DNA of 64,000 nucleotides. Source: Eledone cirrhosa (taxonomy: Eukaryota). The position numbers and the translations under genes are program-made. The notes below the pieces were generated by a model. It saw only the letters and a list, made by a program, of their open reading frames with translations. It made no database searches and was not told where the DNA came from. Of the stretch, positions 6,335 through 57,109 are shown piece by piece. Position 1 is the first letter of the stretch; each line of letters starts with the position of its first letter. The stretch lies in contig OZ024742.1 in NCBI GenBank assembly GCA_964016885.1, positions 58,714,001 through 58,778,000 of the forward strand. Reading direction: 5' to 3'.

Positions 6335-6940
6335 ATGGTGGCTGCCAACTCGTTTTCGAGTACGGCCACTACTTTATATCCATGTAGGAGAACCCCTACT
6401 GATGCACTGAACGAGTGTGACTTTTTAGTCCAGCCATCGACTTGAAAACTCTGGTACAAACACTAAACCTGTGACAATTACTGACACATAGTCCTGGGCC
6501 CATGATACCATGTGATGACAAGTGCAGAGAGATCTCCAGATATAAAGCAATGCCTGTGCCGTGAAGCTTTTATAGTGAGCAAAGGCACTGCACAAAGCCA
6601 GACCCACTCTCTTAACCAAGATGATATTTACCAAAAAGAAGAACAAGTCAACATCATTGGATACCATCAGGGTTGCAGGTGTTATATCAGAGTTTTCTTT
6701 CTCCTAGAATTCTGCCTTGACAAAGGCTAAGAGGTCATCTCTCCCGGTGATTTTGGATGGCCATTGACTCTTAAGAGCTCCTTTCCCCTTTGACAGGTTT
6801 TGTTTTTAGTCCTGCAGGATGTCCAAAGTCACCCTCCTCACCCAGAAACCTTGGTGGGGTTGCCAGTTTAGTCGCTAACGACCCGACCATGAGACAGGTT
6901 TTACCGGGATACATGTTACCAGTAGCACCAACTGGTGACC

Positions 6941-11790: not shown

Positions 11791-13183
11791 GTAGGACTGA
11801 CAATGATCCTGGTTTCAGTGGGGGTGATGGTAGTAGTAGTAGTAGCCGTTATAGTGGCTACAAACTGAAACCAAGATTTCTAAGATCAGTGGAATAGCTA
11901 CCTCATGAAATTAGCGTGTAAGTCTTCCACAGACACGTGTAACCTTAACATAATTTTTGGAGGAATTCAGCGTGATACTGTGTGTGACAATTCTGTTCTT
12001 TTACATAACAAGTACAGTCCATTTGACGGGCTTCCGAACTGTTTCCGTCTATCAAATTTAACATATAAGGTATGTGTCAACTCGTCACGCCAGTCCACTC
12101 AACTAGCAAAAAATGAGTTATACCAGTAATTCAATGGGTCAGCTTTATCACACAGTGTCATGCTGAATCTCCTTGACAATTACGTAAAGGATGCACGTGT
12201 TTGTGAAATTCTCAGTCACTTAATTTCAGGAATAGGGTGTTCCGTTGTTCGAACAACTGGAACACTCGTCGTTCATCATCATCAACAACAACAACAACAA
12301 CTTTAAGTTATGTAATCCAACTATTTACTGCTTTTATCATCTGTACCGCCCTCGACACCAGAAAAAATACCAATCTTAAGCACCGTCTGTATTCGGTTTA
12401 AAACATATACAAACATTTTAACAAAACTCTAAAGATTTATATACATACATACACACACATATATATATATATACATACATACGCCCACATACATACACAC
12501 ATGCAAACATGCATACATACATGTATACATACACACACACTCACGCGTACATACACACATACACACACATACATATATATATGTAAATTCATACACACAT
12601 ATACTGTATAGTAAATACATAGAAAAACGACCTCACATGTATAAAAAAAGGAAATAAACCATTCTCTGAAACAAAACCCCAAAATGAATATAACAAAAAC
12701 AAACACATATAAAAACTCCACATATATAAAAATGTTTGAGTAAGTTTGTCATCTGCTCTTGAATGGCAGATGAAGTTGTGTCGTATAGAGCAGCTGAAAT
12801 ATATCAGAGTTAATGTCTCTTGTCATATTTGTCTTTGGAAAAAAAAACACCAAAAATATGGCTTTCATAGAGAATTATATAAAACACATAAAAAACAATA
12901 AAAACAAAAACAAATTATAATCTGCCTGGCGTTGATGTCAACCCATTCAAACATCTATATGTTGAGCGAACAACTGAACCTCAACGAGACTGCTCTACCT
13001 AATATAAATAGCAGTTAACTATATCTTAAATAACCATTCAAATCTGGTGATAGGCCTCGAAAATAGGTAAAATGTAGGATACCGGAGTTGGTAATAAGTT
13101 AAGAACATATGTAACTATAGGGCCCAAAGCTGGTAACAGGCCCAAGCTATATGTACATTATAGGAACCCAAAGGTAGTAATAT

Positions 13184-14250
13184 GACCACGGCATATGTAA
13201 ACTGCAGGACCTCGAAACTGGTAATAGGACCATGCCATATGTAAACTGTAGGACCTCGAAACTGGTAATAGGACCATGCCATATGTAAACTGCAGGACCT
13301 CGAAACTGGTAATAGGACCATGCCATATGTAAACTGTAGGACCTCGAAACTGGTAATAGGACCATGCCATATGTAAACTGCAGGACCTCGAAACTGGTAA
13401 TAGGACCATGCCATATGTAAACTGTAGGACCTCGAAACTGGTAATAGGACCATGCCATATGTAAACTGTAGGACCTCGAAACTGGTAATAGGACCATGCC
13501 ATATGTAAACTGTAGGACCTCGAAACTGGTAATAGGACCATGCCATATGTAAACTGCAGGACCTCGAAACTGGTAATAGGACCATGCCATATGTAAACTG
13601 TAGGACCACGAAACTGGTAATAGGACCATGCCATATGTAAACTGTAGGACCTCGAAACTGGTAATAGGACCATGCCATATGTAAACTGTAGGACCACGAA
13701 ACTGGTAATAGGACCATGCCATATGTAAACTGCAGGACCTCGAAACTGGTAATAGGACCATGCCATATGTAAACTGTAGGACCACGAAACTGGTAATAGG
13801 ACCATGCCATATGTAAACTGTAGGACCTCGAAACTGGTAATAGGACCATGCCATATGTAAACTGTAGGACCACGAAACTGGTAATAGGACCATGCCATAT
13901 GTAAACTGTAGGACCACGAAACTGGTAATAGGACCATGCCATATGTAAACTGTAGGACCTCGAAACTGGTAATAGGACCATGCCATATGTAAACTGTAGG
14001 ACCACGAAACTGGTAATAGGACCATGCCATATGTAAACTGTAGGACCTCGAAACTGGTAATAGGACCATGCCATATGTAAACTGTAGGACCACGAAACTG
14101 GTAATAGGACCATGCCATATGTAAACTGTAGGACCTCGAAACTGGTAATAGGACCATGCCATATGTAAACTGTAGGACCACGAAACTGGTAATAGGACCA
14201 TGCCATATGTAAACTGTAGGACCTCGAAACTGGTAATAGGACCACGCCAT
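13184..14250. repeat. 44-bp tandem satellite, ~24 copies
   Basis: Unit GGACCATGCCATATGTAAACTG(T/C)AGGACC(T/A)CGAAACTGGTAATA; the 44-aa period of the ORFs equals 3 x 44 nt. Confidence 0.97.
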
Positions 14251-14360
14251 AGTGGCCGCTAAATACTTTTTTCCATCCACTGTGGGTATTTTATCCGATT
14301 TTCTGTGCTATTATTTATAGCAGCCGATTGTGTTTACAACTATTTTCTACGTTTGAGTTT

Positions 14361-23559: not shown

Positions 23560-24640
23560 CTTATATTTATGTTAGCCTAAAGTCTGTTAGCTTTATGTCT
23601 CTGTTAACCATGCGTCTATGTTAACCTTGTATCTATGTTAGCCTTGTGTCTATGTTAGCCTTATGTCTATATTAGCCTTACGTCTCTGTTAGCCTTATGT
23701 CTCTGTTAGTCTTATGTCTATGTTAGCCTTATATCTATGTTAGCCTTATATCTATATTAGCCTTATATCTGTGTTAGCTTATGTCTATGTTAGCCTTATG
23801 TCTGTATTAGCCTTATGTTTATGTTAACCTTATGTCTATGTTAGCCTATGTATGTGCTAGCCTTGTGTCTCTGTTAGCCTTATGTCTATGTTAGCTTTGT
23901 GTCTACGTTAGCATTGTGTCTATGTTAGTCTTGTGTCTATGTTAGCCTTGTGTCCCTGTTAGCCGTATGTTTCTGTTAGCATTGTGTCTCTGTTAGCCTT
24001 ATGTCTATGATAGTCGTGTGACTGTTAACCTTGTATCTATGTTAATCTTGTGTCTACGTTAGCCTTGTGTCTATGTTAACCTTGTGTCTATGTTAGTTTT
24101 GTGTCTATGATAGCCTTATGCTTATGTGAGCCTTATGTTTATGTTAGCCTTATATCTATGATAGCCTTATGTTTATGTTAGCCTTGTGATATGTTAGTCT
24201 TGTGTCTATGTTAGCCTTGTACCTATATTAGCCTTGTGTCTATGTTAGCCTTGTGCCTGTGTTAGTTTTGTGTCTATATTAGCCTTGTGTCTATGTTAGT
24301 TTTGTGTCTATGTTAGCCTTGTACCTGTGTTAGTTTTGTGTCTATGTTAGCCTTGTGCCTGTGTTAGTTTTGTGTCTATGATAGCCTTGTGCCTGTGTTA
24401 TTTTTGTGTCTATGTTAGCCTTGTGTCTATGTTAGTTTTGTGTCTATGTTAGTTTTGTGTCTATGTTAGCTTTGTGCCTATGTTAGTTTTGTGTCTATGT
24501 TAGCCTTGTGCCTGTGTTAGCCTTGTGTCTATGTTAGCCTTGTGCCTGTGTTAGTTTTGTGTCTATGTTAGCTTTGTGCCTATGTTAGTCTTGTGTCTAT
24601 GATAGCCTTGTGCCTATGTTAGTTTTGTGTCTATACTAGG
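23560..24640. repeat. 17-bp minisatellite (TTAGCCTTGTGTCTATG), ~60 copies
   Basis: Direct reading; lies within a SINE 3' tail. Confidence 0.95.
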
Positions 24641-49474: not shown

Positions 49475-49515
49475 CGATGTACTAGTTTCAAGCTTATTAG
49501 CTATCGTCAGCACCG
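49475..49515 (-). ncRNA. Type I hammerhead ribozyme, intact core
   Basis: CGGTG-CTGACGA-TAGCT AATA AGCTT-GAAAC-TA-GTA-CATCG; GUA triplet; ACTAGT palindrome. Confidence 0.8.
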
Positions 49516-54114: not shown

Positions 54115-54484
54115 TATTTATTCCAGTTCTTTAAGTTCAAACAGCAACACTGTTGACAAACTGTATCGTTCTTTGCCTTTGTCATTATCAACAATAGTGA
54201 CATAGTGACAAGGAGGGGAGTAAACTTGTTACATGGTCAAATAATTATATATATATATATATAAATATAATATAATATAAAAATATATAATATATATAAA
54301 TATAATATAATATAAAAATATATAATATATATAAATATAATATAAACAAGTATTGCACCAAGAAAAATAAAACGTCGACGCATATATATATATATATATA
54401 TATATGCATCGACGTTTTATTTTTCTTGGTGCAATACTTGTTTATATTATATTTATATATATTATATATTTTTATATTATATTA

Positions 54485-54522
<38 letters not shown>

Positions 54523-55456: not shown

Positions 55457-55896
55457 TGTATATATATATATATATATATATACTGTATATATATATATAT
55501 ATATATATGAATTTTTTTGCAAAGTTTTGATATGAAATCGTGTGTTGAAACAAATAATGTTATATTTGGGGAGGGTCATATTGTTGTAATATTGCCAGAA
55601 ATAATGATAAAACACACTCACCGTTTGGTTTGGATTGGTTTTCGCTTCTGTATATTTTATATCCCTATAGTTGATTTAGCTGGCAATCAATGTTTATCAT
55701 TGATTGACCAACGGTGAAAATATATATAAATATATATATATATACAAATAAAATACACAGTTATTAACTCATATTGATACCCTGCAATTTTAGACACAGA
55801 ATTTACTGTGTTTATTTCTACGATAAATTATGTGCTCAAAGGAAAAGGAATCCTGAGCTCTTTAAAATGCAATATGTTGAAAGGGTAACCCACCAG

Positions 55897-55931
<35 letters not shown>

Positions 55932-56059
55932 GCGTGCTATCAATAAAACAGGGAGAACCACCAGTGTATGGAATCTATAACCTATGGAAGGCAGGGTAGA
56001 CACACAATAATTAAAAATATAAATTAAAATGTATATAGGCACCTCTATAACTATATAAC

Positions 56060-56142
56060 ACACGCGTACAAATCCAAAGAGATCTGTTTCGCCAGGAAAT
56101 TGTTGACTGAAATGGAATCGCCTATGGGTCATCAGCGCGTGT
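56060..56142 (-). ncRNA. Full type I hammerhead ribozyme
   Basis: Reverse-complement copy of 56235-56317. Confidence 0.8.
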
Positions 56143-56234
56143 AACAATACATTCCAAACAACTCTAAGAAAATCTAAGACAATCTAAGCAGCTCGTCCCT
56201 TAGATACCACTGGTTCACTGTCCTACACTGTCTT

Positions 56235-56317
56235 ACACGCGCTGATGACCCATAGGCGATTCCATTTCAGTCAACAATTTCCTGGCGAAACAGATCTCTT
56301 TGGATTTGTACGCGTGT
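56235..56317 (+). ncRNA. Full type I hammerhead ribozyme
   Basis: Stem I ACACGCG/CGCGTGT; CTGATGA at 56242-56248; long stem II (CCA..AGG/CCTGG); GAAAC at 56287-56291; stem III ACAGATCT-CTTT-GGATTTGT; GUA site at 56308-56310. Confidence 0.8.
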
Positions 56318-56514
56318 GTTATATAGTTATAGAGGTGCCTATATACATTTTAATTTATATTTTTAATTATTGTGTGTCTACCCTGCCTTCTATAGATTAT
56401 AGATTCCATACACTGGTGGTTCTCCCTGTTTTATTGATAGCACACGATCTCCCTCTCTCTCTCTAGTATGTTACCCTTTCAACATATTGTGTGTATATAT
56501 ATATATATATATAT

Positions 56515-57050
56515 ATAGTCTATCAGAGTTCTTTCATCACACACCTGTGACATCATCAGTGGTACTATTATGTTTCCTCCTGTTGTATTGTAATGTCTAT
56601 ACTATTATTCATTTATTTATTTTTGTCTCTGCGCATGTGTGTTTCCTGTTTGGTGTGTTTTCGTGTCTGAGTGTGTGTGTATTTGTATTTTATCTTTGCT
56701 CACTAGTGTGTGTTTATGTGTGGTTGTTGTTATTGTACCTGTGTATGGTTGTTGTTATTCCATTCATTTTTTTCTGTTTAACTTCGGTTTTCTTAGTTCT
56801 ATTTCAGTTACTTCTCTGATTTGTCTACCTGTTGAGTCATTTCTATGTTTAGATATTATTTTAATTTCTATGTTGTCTATATTACCGTCATGTTAACCGT
56901 TTTTTTTGTCCCCATTGTTGGTCTAATCTTTCCCCTATGCTCAGAGCTGTCTCTCCTATGTATGTCGTTGTCATGTTTCTGTAAGTACCCTCTGTATATT
57001 TTATGCTATAGACTACATTTCTAATTTTAGACAATATTATAACAATATGA
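56515..57050 (-). mobile_element. Decayed Penelope-like element related to 41535-43005
   Basis: Remnant KIRNVVYSIKYTEG...YIGETALSIGER; hammerhead ACCA-CTGATGA-TGTCAC AGGTGT GTGAT-GAAAGAACTC-TGAT at 56522-56563. Confidence 0.75.
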
Positions 57051-57064
57051 CTCTCCCTAAATAT

Positions 57065-57109
<45 letters not shown>

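What the first reader, a model, noticed from the sequence alone, without database searches (positions are those of the whole stretch)
55870..56487. Divergent pair of complete hammerhead ribozymes in an inverted duplication
Unlike the minimal motifs, this ribozyme has a 7-bp stem I, an 8-bp stem III, an intact CUGAUGA/GAAA core, a GUA site and an unusually long stem II with a C-C first pair. The two copies are identical across the ribozyme, and the inversion starts 2 nt outside stem I. Transcription from either strand would carry one sense ribozyme plus its antisense, forming a ~260-bp dsRNA hairpin that could silence cleavage or be an editing/RNAi substrate (inference).
Basis: partly seen in the sequence, partly recalled or inferred. 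Interest (0 to 1): 0.75.

Follow-up and report, generated by a model that had tools for sequence, protein, structure and literature searches.

The report
Mirror-image ribozyme pair from Penelope-type insertion
The two back-to-back hammerhead motifs are real, but they are one insertion of a common 537-base repeat whose copies usually have a mirror-image arm, a layout known from Penelope jumping genes that likely copied it; the more unusual part is the ribozyme motif itself, which mostly lacks a normally fixed base pair and is predicted to form an extra pseudoknot.

Summary
The inverted pair is real (232-nt arms, 98% alike; two type I hammerhead motifs with intact cores). It is not a locus-specific device. 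It is one insertion of a non-coding repeat with a 537-nt unit and hundreds of copies, in (TA)n tracts. 46 of 76 sampled loci have a divergent arm. Arms end at two fixed points 88 nt apart (29 A+B, no A+A or B+B): the published Penelope pattern of an inverted 5'-truncated copy with a one-sided tail. Corrections: the inversion point is mid-spacer (56183-56187); 'starts 2 nt outside stem I' results from a 73-nt and a 2-nt deletion; stem II is 3 bp with a 30-nt loop, not long. Family variation supports a helix between that loop and the 5' flank (likely pseudoknot). Pair 10.1-11.1 is A.C in 70, C.C in 26, G-C in 15 of 118 copies. No arm starts at the cut site (0 of 97), so cleavage in vivo is unshown. 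No RNA data.

The parts
55820..56184 (-). Inverted, 5'-truncated arm of the 537-nt repeat (unit position about 490 through the ribozyme to the tail)
55820..55869 (-). One-sided tail (between fixed ends A and B), about 36 nt shorter than in the family; fit to end B is inferred
   Evidence: family ends
56059..56143 (-). Type I hammerhead motif, minus copy; predicted cut between 56067 and 56066; 2 nt lost just 5' of stem I
56183..56187 (.). True inversion junction between the two arms (0-2 nt overlap)
   Evidence: sequence
56187..56490 (+). Direct arm (unit position 410 to fixed end A), with a 73-nt internal deletion at 56228/56229, followed by (TA)n
56234..56318 (+). Type I hammerhead motif, plus copy: stem I 56234-56241/56311-56318, core 56242-56248, C.C at 56249/56286, stem II 56250-56252/56283-56285, stem III 56290-56297/56302-56309, predicted cut after 56310
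56229..56260 (+). Remnant of the predicted pseudoknot helix: flank 56229-56233 with loop II 56254-56258 (5 of the family's 7 pairs; the - copy keeps 5 weaker pairs in a shifted register)
56233..56390 (.). Tract identical between the arms (0 differences), against 7 substitutions in the next 90 nt; likely gene conversion
56335..56395 (+). 61-nt intron-like stretch (GT...AG, pyrimidine tract); donor altered in both window arms; never seen spliced out
   Evidence: intron status is inference
55750..55821 (.). Short unrelated 70-nt repeat between the tail and the TA tract
56517..57030 (-). Older Penelope-type fragment (decayed endonuclease end, 3' region, minimal hammerhead motif at 56559) into whose TA tract the repeat inserted
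55510..55745 (-). Continuation of that older element (its end and tail) on the other side of the insertion
   Evidence: 11 of 11 relatives hold both flanks in this order

Best explanation
The pair is one two-armed insertion of a non-coding 537-nt hammerhead-bearing repeat (retrozyme type) into a TA tract, likely written by a Penelope-type reverse transcriptase. Shown: high copy number, 537-nt period, (TA)n flanks, a divergent arm at most loci, two fixed 3' ends used one per arm, arms that run across the predicted cut site and beyond one unit, nesting inside an older Penelope fragment, and abundant Penelope-type RT/endonuclease elements in the genome. Inferred: the enzyme cuts TA DNA, both ends prime reverse transcription at two fixed sites 88 nt apart on an uncut or circular RNA, and the two cDNAs are joined head to head at their truncated 5' ends; later a 73-nt and a 2-nt deletion trimmed the flanks and gene conversion made the inner 157 nt identical. 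In the family RNA the ribozyme likely folds with a short stem II and a loop II/5'-flank pseudoknot and is predicted to cut slowly because 10.1-11.1 is mostly unpaired. At this locus the hairpin is a by-product: a read-through RNA would make the antisense arm first and so would block the ribozyme.
For: Copy number: 1877 first-look candidates, 40 scored; 131, 153 and 232 exact pattern matches. Period 537 from a real head-to-tail copy, L018. Of 76 loci taken from the list, 46 have a divergent arm and 1 a convergent one; ends in the 46: 29 A+B, 9 B+other, 7 A+other, 1 other+other, no A+A or B+B; most ends run into (TA)n; 29 of 127 arms exceed 537 nt, longest 864. 0 of 97 arms start at the cut site. 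Arms of one locus differ at 12.6% of subfamily-diagnostic sites against 27.9% for random pairs, and 20 of 45 pairs share a rare allele against 6.6%. Window arms: 0/157 inner and 7/90 outer differences, Fisher p=0.0007; one allele combination occurs only in these two arms. Host element: 11 of 11 relatives. Penelope-type ORF in the window with 41659 candidates, a 1257-aa frame with YVDD, CxxxxCxxC and YIGETAR motifs, best named relative an RT-domain protein of an octopus. Literature: inverted 5'-truncated copy plus one-sided tail (PMC8557442; PMC3846280); two internal RT start sites bounding the tail, AT-rich cuts on both strands, uncut RNA as substrate (PMC11167929); opposite-strand hammerhead pairs 100-700 bp apart (PMC4209133). 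Pseudoknot helix: first of 46 candidate helices, 1 of 500 shuffles reach it, 5 of its 7 pairs predicted by RNAalifold, present in the lowest-energy fold of the unit as a circle, pair-keeping 35 against 18 breaking in 39 further loci.
Against: No autonomous partner was found: the unit has no DNA match to the ends of the one large Penelope family tested, and none of 12 of 198 family loci with Penelope protein hits shows an ORF leading into the unit (one fusion to a decayed ORF, L127, looks incidental). Pfam does not name the Penelope ORFs; the GIY-YIG match in the PDB is weak (E 0.55). The tail (88 nt) is longer than the published 30-40 nt, and the unit is longer than the 170-400 nt of described animal retrozymes. 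17 of 45 arm pairs differ at two or more diagnostic sites, so not all arms come from one RNA. Unconstrained folds do not give the full hammerhead: single-sequence folds give stem I but not stems II and III, RNAalifold gives none of stems I-III, and in the circular unit stems I and II have probability 0.0 and the extra helix 0.15. The helix's two-sided changes sit at essentially one pair in related copies, it was first seen in the same data, and 2 of its 10 recurrent variants break it. No long tandem arrays were seen; no circle or cleavage is shown.
Confidence: 0.8

Rival explanations
1. The pair is kept by selection as a locus-specific RNA device: the antisense arm silences the ribozyme, or the hairpin is a source of small RNAs or an editing substrate.
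For: Very stable predicted hairpin; the arms are more alike than at 43 of the other 44 two-armed loci; both cores intact.
Against: The layout is routine for the family (46 of 76) and for other families in the window; both copies have damaged 5' flanks; identity extends 70 nt past the ribozyme and stops abruptly, as for a conversion tract; no hyper-edited arm among 248; the insert sits inside another decayed element.
Confidence: 0.05
2. The extra helix is part of a long rod that holds the ribozyme in an inactive fold (as in viroid-like circles), not a pseudoknot of the active fold; or the motif no longer cuts and serves only as a protein-binding shape.
For: The helix extends into a rod of about 19 pairs in the lowest-energy circular fold, where stems I and II are absent; 10.1-11.1 is a mismatch in 100 of 118 copies; 0 of 97 arms start at the cut site; a Penelope hammerhead was dispensable for insertion in vitro (PMC11167929).
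Against: Core positions are spared relative to the loop; stem I shows pair-keeping recurrent variants, 3 of 4; the helix starts exactly where stems I and II would meet (inference); pseudoknots stabilise many natural hammerheads (PMC3088659).
Confidence: 0.3
3. The inverted arm arose at DNA level after a plain single-armed insertion (fold-back or template switch), or is an assembly artefact.
For: Inner 157 nt are identical; some junctions in the family are near-palindromic; public contigs laid on the locus do not span the junction.
Against: The arms have different fixed 3' ends, different 5' truncation points and different deletions; the A+B rule across 29 loci cannot come from copying one arm; outer parts differ at 7 of 90 sites.
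Confidence: 0.05
4. The element is a foldback or MITE-like DNA transposon with terminal inverted repeats.
For: Long inverted arms; TA targets.
Against: Arm lengths and inner ends vary from locus to locus, 30 of 76 loci have one arm only, the two outer ends differ, and head-to-tail partial tandems occur.
Confidence: 0.02

Closest known systems
Insertions of endonuclease-bearing Penelope-like elements (Craig et al. 2021, PMC8557442, passages read; Arkhipova et al. 2013, PMC3846280, passages read; Frangieh et al. 2024, PMC11167929, parts 1-2 of 4 read)
   Same: 5' truncation, partial tandems, head-to-head inverted truncated copy, tail on one side only, (TA)n targets, hammerhead motif near the end, intron-like stretch retained.
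   Different: No ORF; tail 88 nt rather than 30-40; partner element not identified.
Metazoan non-LTR retrozymes (Cervera and de la Pena 2020, PMC7229834, passages and section 14 read; Li, Clavereau and Pollet 2026, bioRxiv 10.64898/2026.07.22.740005, part 1 of 5 and passages read)
   Same: Non-coding unit with one type I hammerhead, head-to-tail repetition, GC 40%, co-occurrence with Penelope elements.
   Different: Unit 537 nt (described 170-400 nt); arms at most about 1.7 units, few with two ribozymes in tandem; circular RNA and cleavage untested; inverted arms are not among the features in the passages read.
[quoted passage not shown]
   Same: Type I; pairs on opposite strands 100-700 bp apart are reported there.
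   Different: Those have almost no helix III, a 6-8 bp helix II, an extra base after A9 and a conserved G10.1-C11.1; this one has an 8-bp stem III, 3-bp stem II, 30-nt loop II and mostly A.C or C.C at 10.1-11.1.
Pseudoknot-stabilised hammerheads (Perreault et al. 2011, PMC3088659, passages read)
   Same: Short stem II; base-paired contact between the stem I side and the stem II side; a natural mismatch at 10.1-11.1 (U.U) is reported.
   Different: Mismatch here is A.C or C.C; the helix is predicted only. The crystallised PK hammerhead (PMC11300833, passages read) differs: there the pseudoknot replaces helix II.

Membership tests
Type I hammerhead ribozyme | Core CUGANGA, GAAA, A15.1-U16.1 and NUH cleavage triplet | tested here: met
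   Both window copies; intact in 29 of 39 loci picked outside the ribozyme.
Type I hammerhead ribozyme | Three helices around the core, open at helix I | tested here: met
   96-98% of cells paired in stems I-III over 80 distinct copies (stem III is biased by how loci were picked); covariation within these stems is slight and free folds do not recover all three.
Type I hammerhead ribozyme | Conserved pair 10.1-11.1 (usually G-C) | tested here: not met
   C.C in the window; A.C 70, C.C 26, G-C 15, U.C 4, other 3 of 118. Not absolute: a U.U exception is in print.
Type I hammerhead ribozyme | Tertiary contact between the stem I and stem II sides | tested here: inconclusive
   Flank/loop II helix supported by variation; pseudoknot versus rod undecided; partly lost in both window copies.
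Type I hammerhead ribozyme | Match to an Rfam hammerhead model | tested here: not met
   No match at gathering score or at E up to 10.
Type I hammerhead ribozyme | Self-cleavage | not testable with these tools
   Indirect test negative: 0 of 97 arms start at the predicted site.
Penelope-type insertion (non-autonomous) | Inverted 5'-truncated copy, head to head | tested here: met
   46 of 76 loci, 1 convergent; window junction.
Penelope-type insertion (non-autonomous) | Two fixed 3' ends giving a tail on one side only | tested here: met
   29 A+B, 0 A+A, 0 B+B among 46; tail 88 nt.
Penelope-type insertion (non-autonomous) | Microsatellite (TA)n target | tested here: met
   Flanks listed; host TA tract.
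Penelope-type insertion (non-autonomous) | Shared terminal sequence with an autonomous RT/GIY-YIG element | tested here: inconclusive
   No match to the one large family tested and no ORF-linked copy among 198 loci; other Penelope families were not surveyed.
Non-LTR retrozyme | Non-coding unit with a type I hammerhead, repeated head to tail | tested here: met
   Period 537, longest stop-free frame 91 codons, no protein match; only partial tandems seen.
Non-LTR retrozyme | Unit of about 170-400 nt in dimers to multimers | tested here: not met
   537 nt; longest arms about 0.86-0.91 kb.
Non-LTR retrozyme | Accumulation as circular RNA | not testable with these tools
   Indirect only: 29 of 127 arms exceed one unit and cross the cut site.

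The most novel reading that the evidence does not exclude
The family carries a natural hammerhead variant that has given up the 10.1-11.1 pair and uses one flank/loop II helix both as the pseudoknot of the cutting fold and as the seed of an inactive rod, so that the RNA cuts and closes into a 537-nt circle once and then stays whole while a Penelope enzyme copies it from two fixed sites into both ends of a TA break.
Probability: 0.2. Interest if true: 0.65.

Novelty: new member of a known kind. Interest (0 to 1): 0.3.

Why it matters
The locus itself is ordinary: a by-product of Penelope-type insertion. The family is a useful test object. Its three natural states at 10.1-11.1 and its predicted pseudoknot can be assayed directly, which bears on the open question of whether hammerheads in Penelope elements need to cut. 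The strict one-end-A, one-end-B rule adds genomic support for priming from both sides of a break at two RNA start sites. Because most insertions are two-armed, such elements may supply much of the double-stranded RNA in this genome (inference).

Tried and rejected
Rfam: no hammerhead match. First pseudoknot idea (flank -22..-16 with loop +17..+23): rejected, 34 pair-keeping against 54 breaking departures. Extension of stem I past the bulge: no covariation, 457-500 of 500 shuffles as high, 17 keep against 45 break, though 11 against 7 in the second set; not supported, not excluded. Long stem II: rejected. Excess of arm starts at the cut site: 2 of 127 (biased sample) and 0 of 97 (98 of 100 listed sites recovered, 1 not anchored). 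A cluster of 10 of 97 starts inside stem III (unit 56-65) was seen after the fact. Spliced copies: none of 231. Hyper-editing: at most 3 rare A>G per arm among 248. Autonomous partner: not found. Expression: no RNA holder listed; contigs of three runs of one sample hold family pieces but none spans the stretch; neither bears on expression. One search used a wrong gap length and was redone. A genome-wide search for diverged sister families with the RNA model was not available for this genome, so that test is open; the model finds only the two copies in the window. The bacterial promoter scan is not relevant to an animal. Lunse et al. 2017 (PMC5785218) is not held. Paper searches listed no description of this family or of a cephalopod retrozyme; supplements (for example the family lists of PMC8557442 and of the 2026 preprint) and repeat libraries were not seen and may hold it. 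One misaligned row (L207) was left in the 39.

Full report
Observation. The inverted repeat is real: arms 55913-56144 and 56233-56464, 232 nt, 98% complementary, 88 nt apart, with a further 19-20 bp beyond a CT tract of unequal length. Each arm holds a type I hammerhead motif with CUGAUGA, GAAA, a 7-bp stem I plus one U-G, an 8-bp stem III, GUA and a C.C at 10.1-11.1; the predicted cut is after 56310 (+) and between 56067 and 56066 (-). Rfam has no match at the gathering score and no hammerhead match at E up to 10. Below, unit position 1 is the C of CUGAUGA.

The family. The arm belongs to a dispersed repeat: 1877 first-look candidates, 40 scored, best other copies 95% alike; exact patterns give 131, 153 and 232 matches with reversed controls at 0. 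A real head-to-tail copy (L018) gives a period of 537 nt, GC 40%, with no stop-free frame over 91 codons and no protein match. The genome is 3.0 Gb; the best named relative of a window ORF is from an octopus, so a cephalopod is inferred.

Insertion anatomy. I mapped 76 loci from the list (leaving out four picked because they were pairs, and those already held). 46 have a head-to-head second arm, 1 a convergent one. 3' ends fall at two points, A (unit 242-246) and B (330). Among the 46: 29 A+B, 9 B+other, 7 A+other, 1 other+other, no A+A or B+B. Most ends run into (TA)n. 5' ends are spread over the unit; 29 of 127 arms are longer than one unit, the longest 864 nt. This is the structure described for endonuclease-bearing Penelope-like elements: an inverted 5'-truncated copy and a tail at one end only (PMC8557442, passages; PMC3846280, passages). 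In vitro, one such enzyme cuts AT-rich DNA on both strands and starts reverse transcription at two internal RNA sites that bound the tail, using uncut RNA (PMC11167929, parts 1-2 of 4). Hammerhead pairs on opposite strands 100-700 bp apart were reported in 2014 (PMC4209133). A very large Penelope-type family is present (41659 candidates; a 1257-aa frame with RT and endonuclease-like motifs), but Pfam does not name it, the PDB match is weak, and its ends do not match the unit. No ORF-linked copy was found among 198 family loci, so the partner is unidentified.

This locus. The - arm starts near unit 490, runs through the ribozyme and end A, and carries the tail to about 55820. The + arm starts at unit 410 (56187), lacks 73 nt at 56228/56229, and stops at end A (56490) before (TA)n. 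The junction is therefore at 56183-56187; the apparent start of the inversion 2 nt outside stem I comes from that 73-nt deletion and a 2-nt deletion in the - arm. The insert lies in the TA tract just 3' of the minimal hammerhead of an older Penelope fragment: 11 of 11 relatives hold both flanks in order. The arms differ at 0 of 157 inner and 7 of 90 outer positions (Fisher p=0.0007), share an allele combination found nowhere else, and are the second most alike of 45 pairs (median of 26 inverted pairs 6.3%). Gene conversion between arms is the simplest reading (inference). Across loci, arms are more alike than random pairs (12.6% against 27.9% at diagnostic sites; 20 of 45 share a rare allele against 6.6%), but 17 of 45 differ at two or more diagnostic sites, so some insertions used two different RNAs.

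The ribozyme. Stem II has three kept pairs; the proposed extension is broken by recurrent variants. Pair 10.1-11.1 is A.C in 70, C.C in 26, G-C in 15, U.C in 4 and other in 3 of 118 full copies, so C.C is a subfamily state and the commonest state is also a mismatch. A scan for covarying columns showed that flank -14..-8 pairs with loop II +13..+19: it ranks first of 46 candidate helices, 8 of 10 recurrent variants keep pairing, including A-U to U-G and to C-G; 1 of 500 shuffles reach its score (same data, related sequences, so not a probability); 39 further loci give 35 pair-keeping against 18 breaking departures, while stems II and III there give 3/14 and 6/25. RNAalifold predicts 5 of its 7 pairs but none of stems I-III; the lowest-energy fold of the unit as a circle has it as part of a longer rod with stems I and II absent. 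It may be a pseudoknot of the cutting fold, as in many natural hammerheads (PMC3088659, passages), or part of an inactive rod. Both window copies keep only 5 of the pairs (-3.4 and -1.6 against -5.5 kcal/mol). Core positions depart less than the free loop (10/427 against 32/468, p=0.0014), which suggests selection on source copies, though base composition may contribute.

Cleavage and RNA. If cut linear RNA were the template, arms would start at unit 70. None of 97 does; 10 start inside stem III (seen after the fact). The template was thus uncut or re-ligated (inference). A 61-nt intron-like stretch is retained in all 231 copies measured. A read-through transcript of the locus is predicted to fold at -456 or -478 kcal/mol; since the antisense arm would be made first, the ribozyme would be blocked (inference). 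No arm of 248 shows hyper-editing. Expression could not be tested.

Comparison and verdict. It works like a Penelope-mobilised non-autonomous element of the retrozyme type (PMC7229834; bioRxiv 10.64898/2026.07.22.740005). It meets the Penelope insertion features tested; it fails the described retrozyme size range and the 10.1-11.1 pair; cleavage and circles are untested. My paper searches listed no description of this family; supplements and repeat libraries were not seen. The scan has noted the same two-armed architecture in other families of this genome, and a 546-nt family with a predicted pseudoknot; look-ups by sequence found no note on this family, and the cut-site excess reported for the 546-nt family is absent here. 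I had reached the Penelope reading and the pseudoknot before seeing those notes; the wording of priming from both sides of a break follows them. Verdict: the divergent pair is an expected insertion product; the family's ribozyme variant is a modest, testable novelty. Interest 0.3.

Noticed in passing
window 29230-29760: A second divergent pair of minimal hammerhead motifs (cores at 29416 - and 29561 +) in inverted arms between TA tracts; another copy of that motif at 49510 (-).
   Followed up: partly
window 41540-43001 (-): 3' part of a Penelope-type element: 359-aa frame (RT end, zinc-finger-like linker, endonuclease) followed by a minimal hammerhead at 41723; family has 41659 first-look candidates and frames up to 1257 aa.
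   Followed up: partly
window 10014 (-), 31780 (+), 35249 (+), 36616 (-): Further short CUGANGA...GAAA motifs from the scan, probably ends of other Penelope families.
   Followed up: no
window 57031-57068 (+): Short inverted end of the older host element, so the host too looks two-armed with a tail on one side (seen by eye; weak matches).
   Followed up: partly
window 55750-55821: A 70-nt repeat with 987 first-look candidates, lying between TA tracts and sometimes in inverted pairs.
   Followed up: partly
window 13106-14251 and 23585-24634: Homogeneous tandem arrays: 44-nt unit x 26 (95% matches) and 17-nt unit x 62.
   Followed up: no
window 54290-54497: Perfect palindrome, arms of 104 nt with no spacer, AT-rich.
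   Followed up: no
L111:2689-3055 and 6508-6874: Two 371-nt family arms with the same ends in inverted orientation 3.5 kb apart, probably part of a larger inverted duplication.
   Followed up: no
L127:2236-3270: A family arm fused to a decayed Penelope ORF through a repeated 10-nt word, and followed by the tail of the large Penelope family.
   Followed up: partly
family-wide, unit positions 56-65: 10 of 97 arms have their 5' end inside stem III, 5-14 nt past the predicted cut site, as if the enzyme stalls in that hairpin (seen after the fact).
   Followed up: partly
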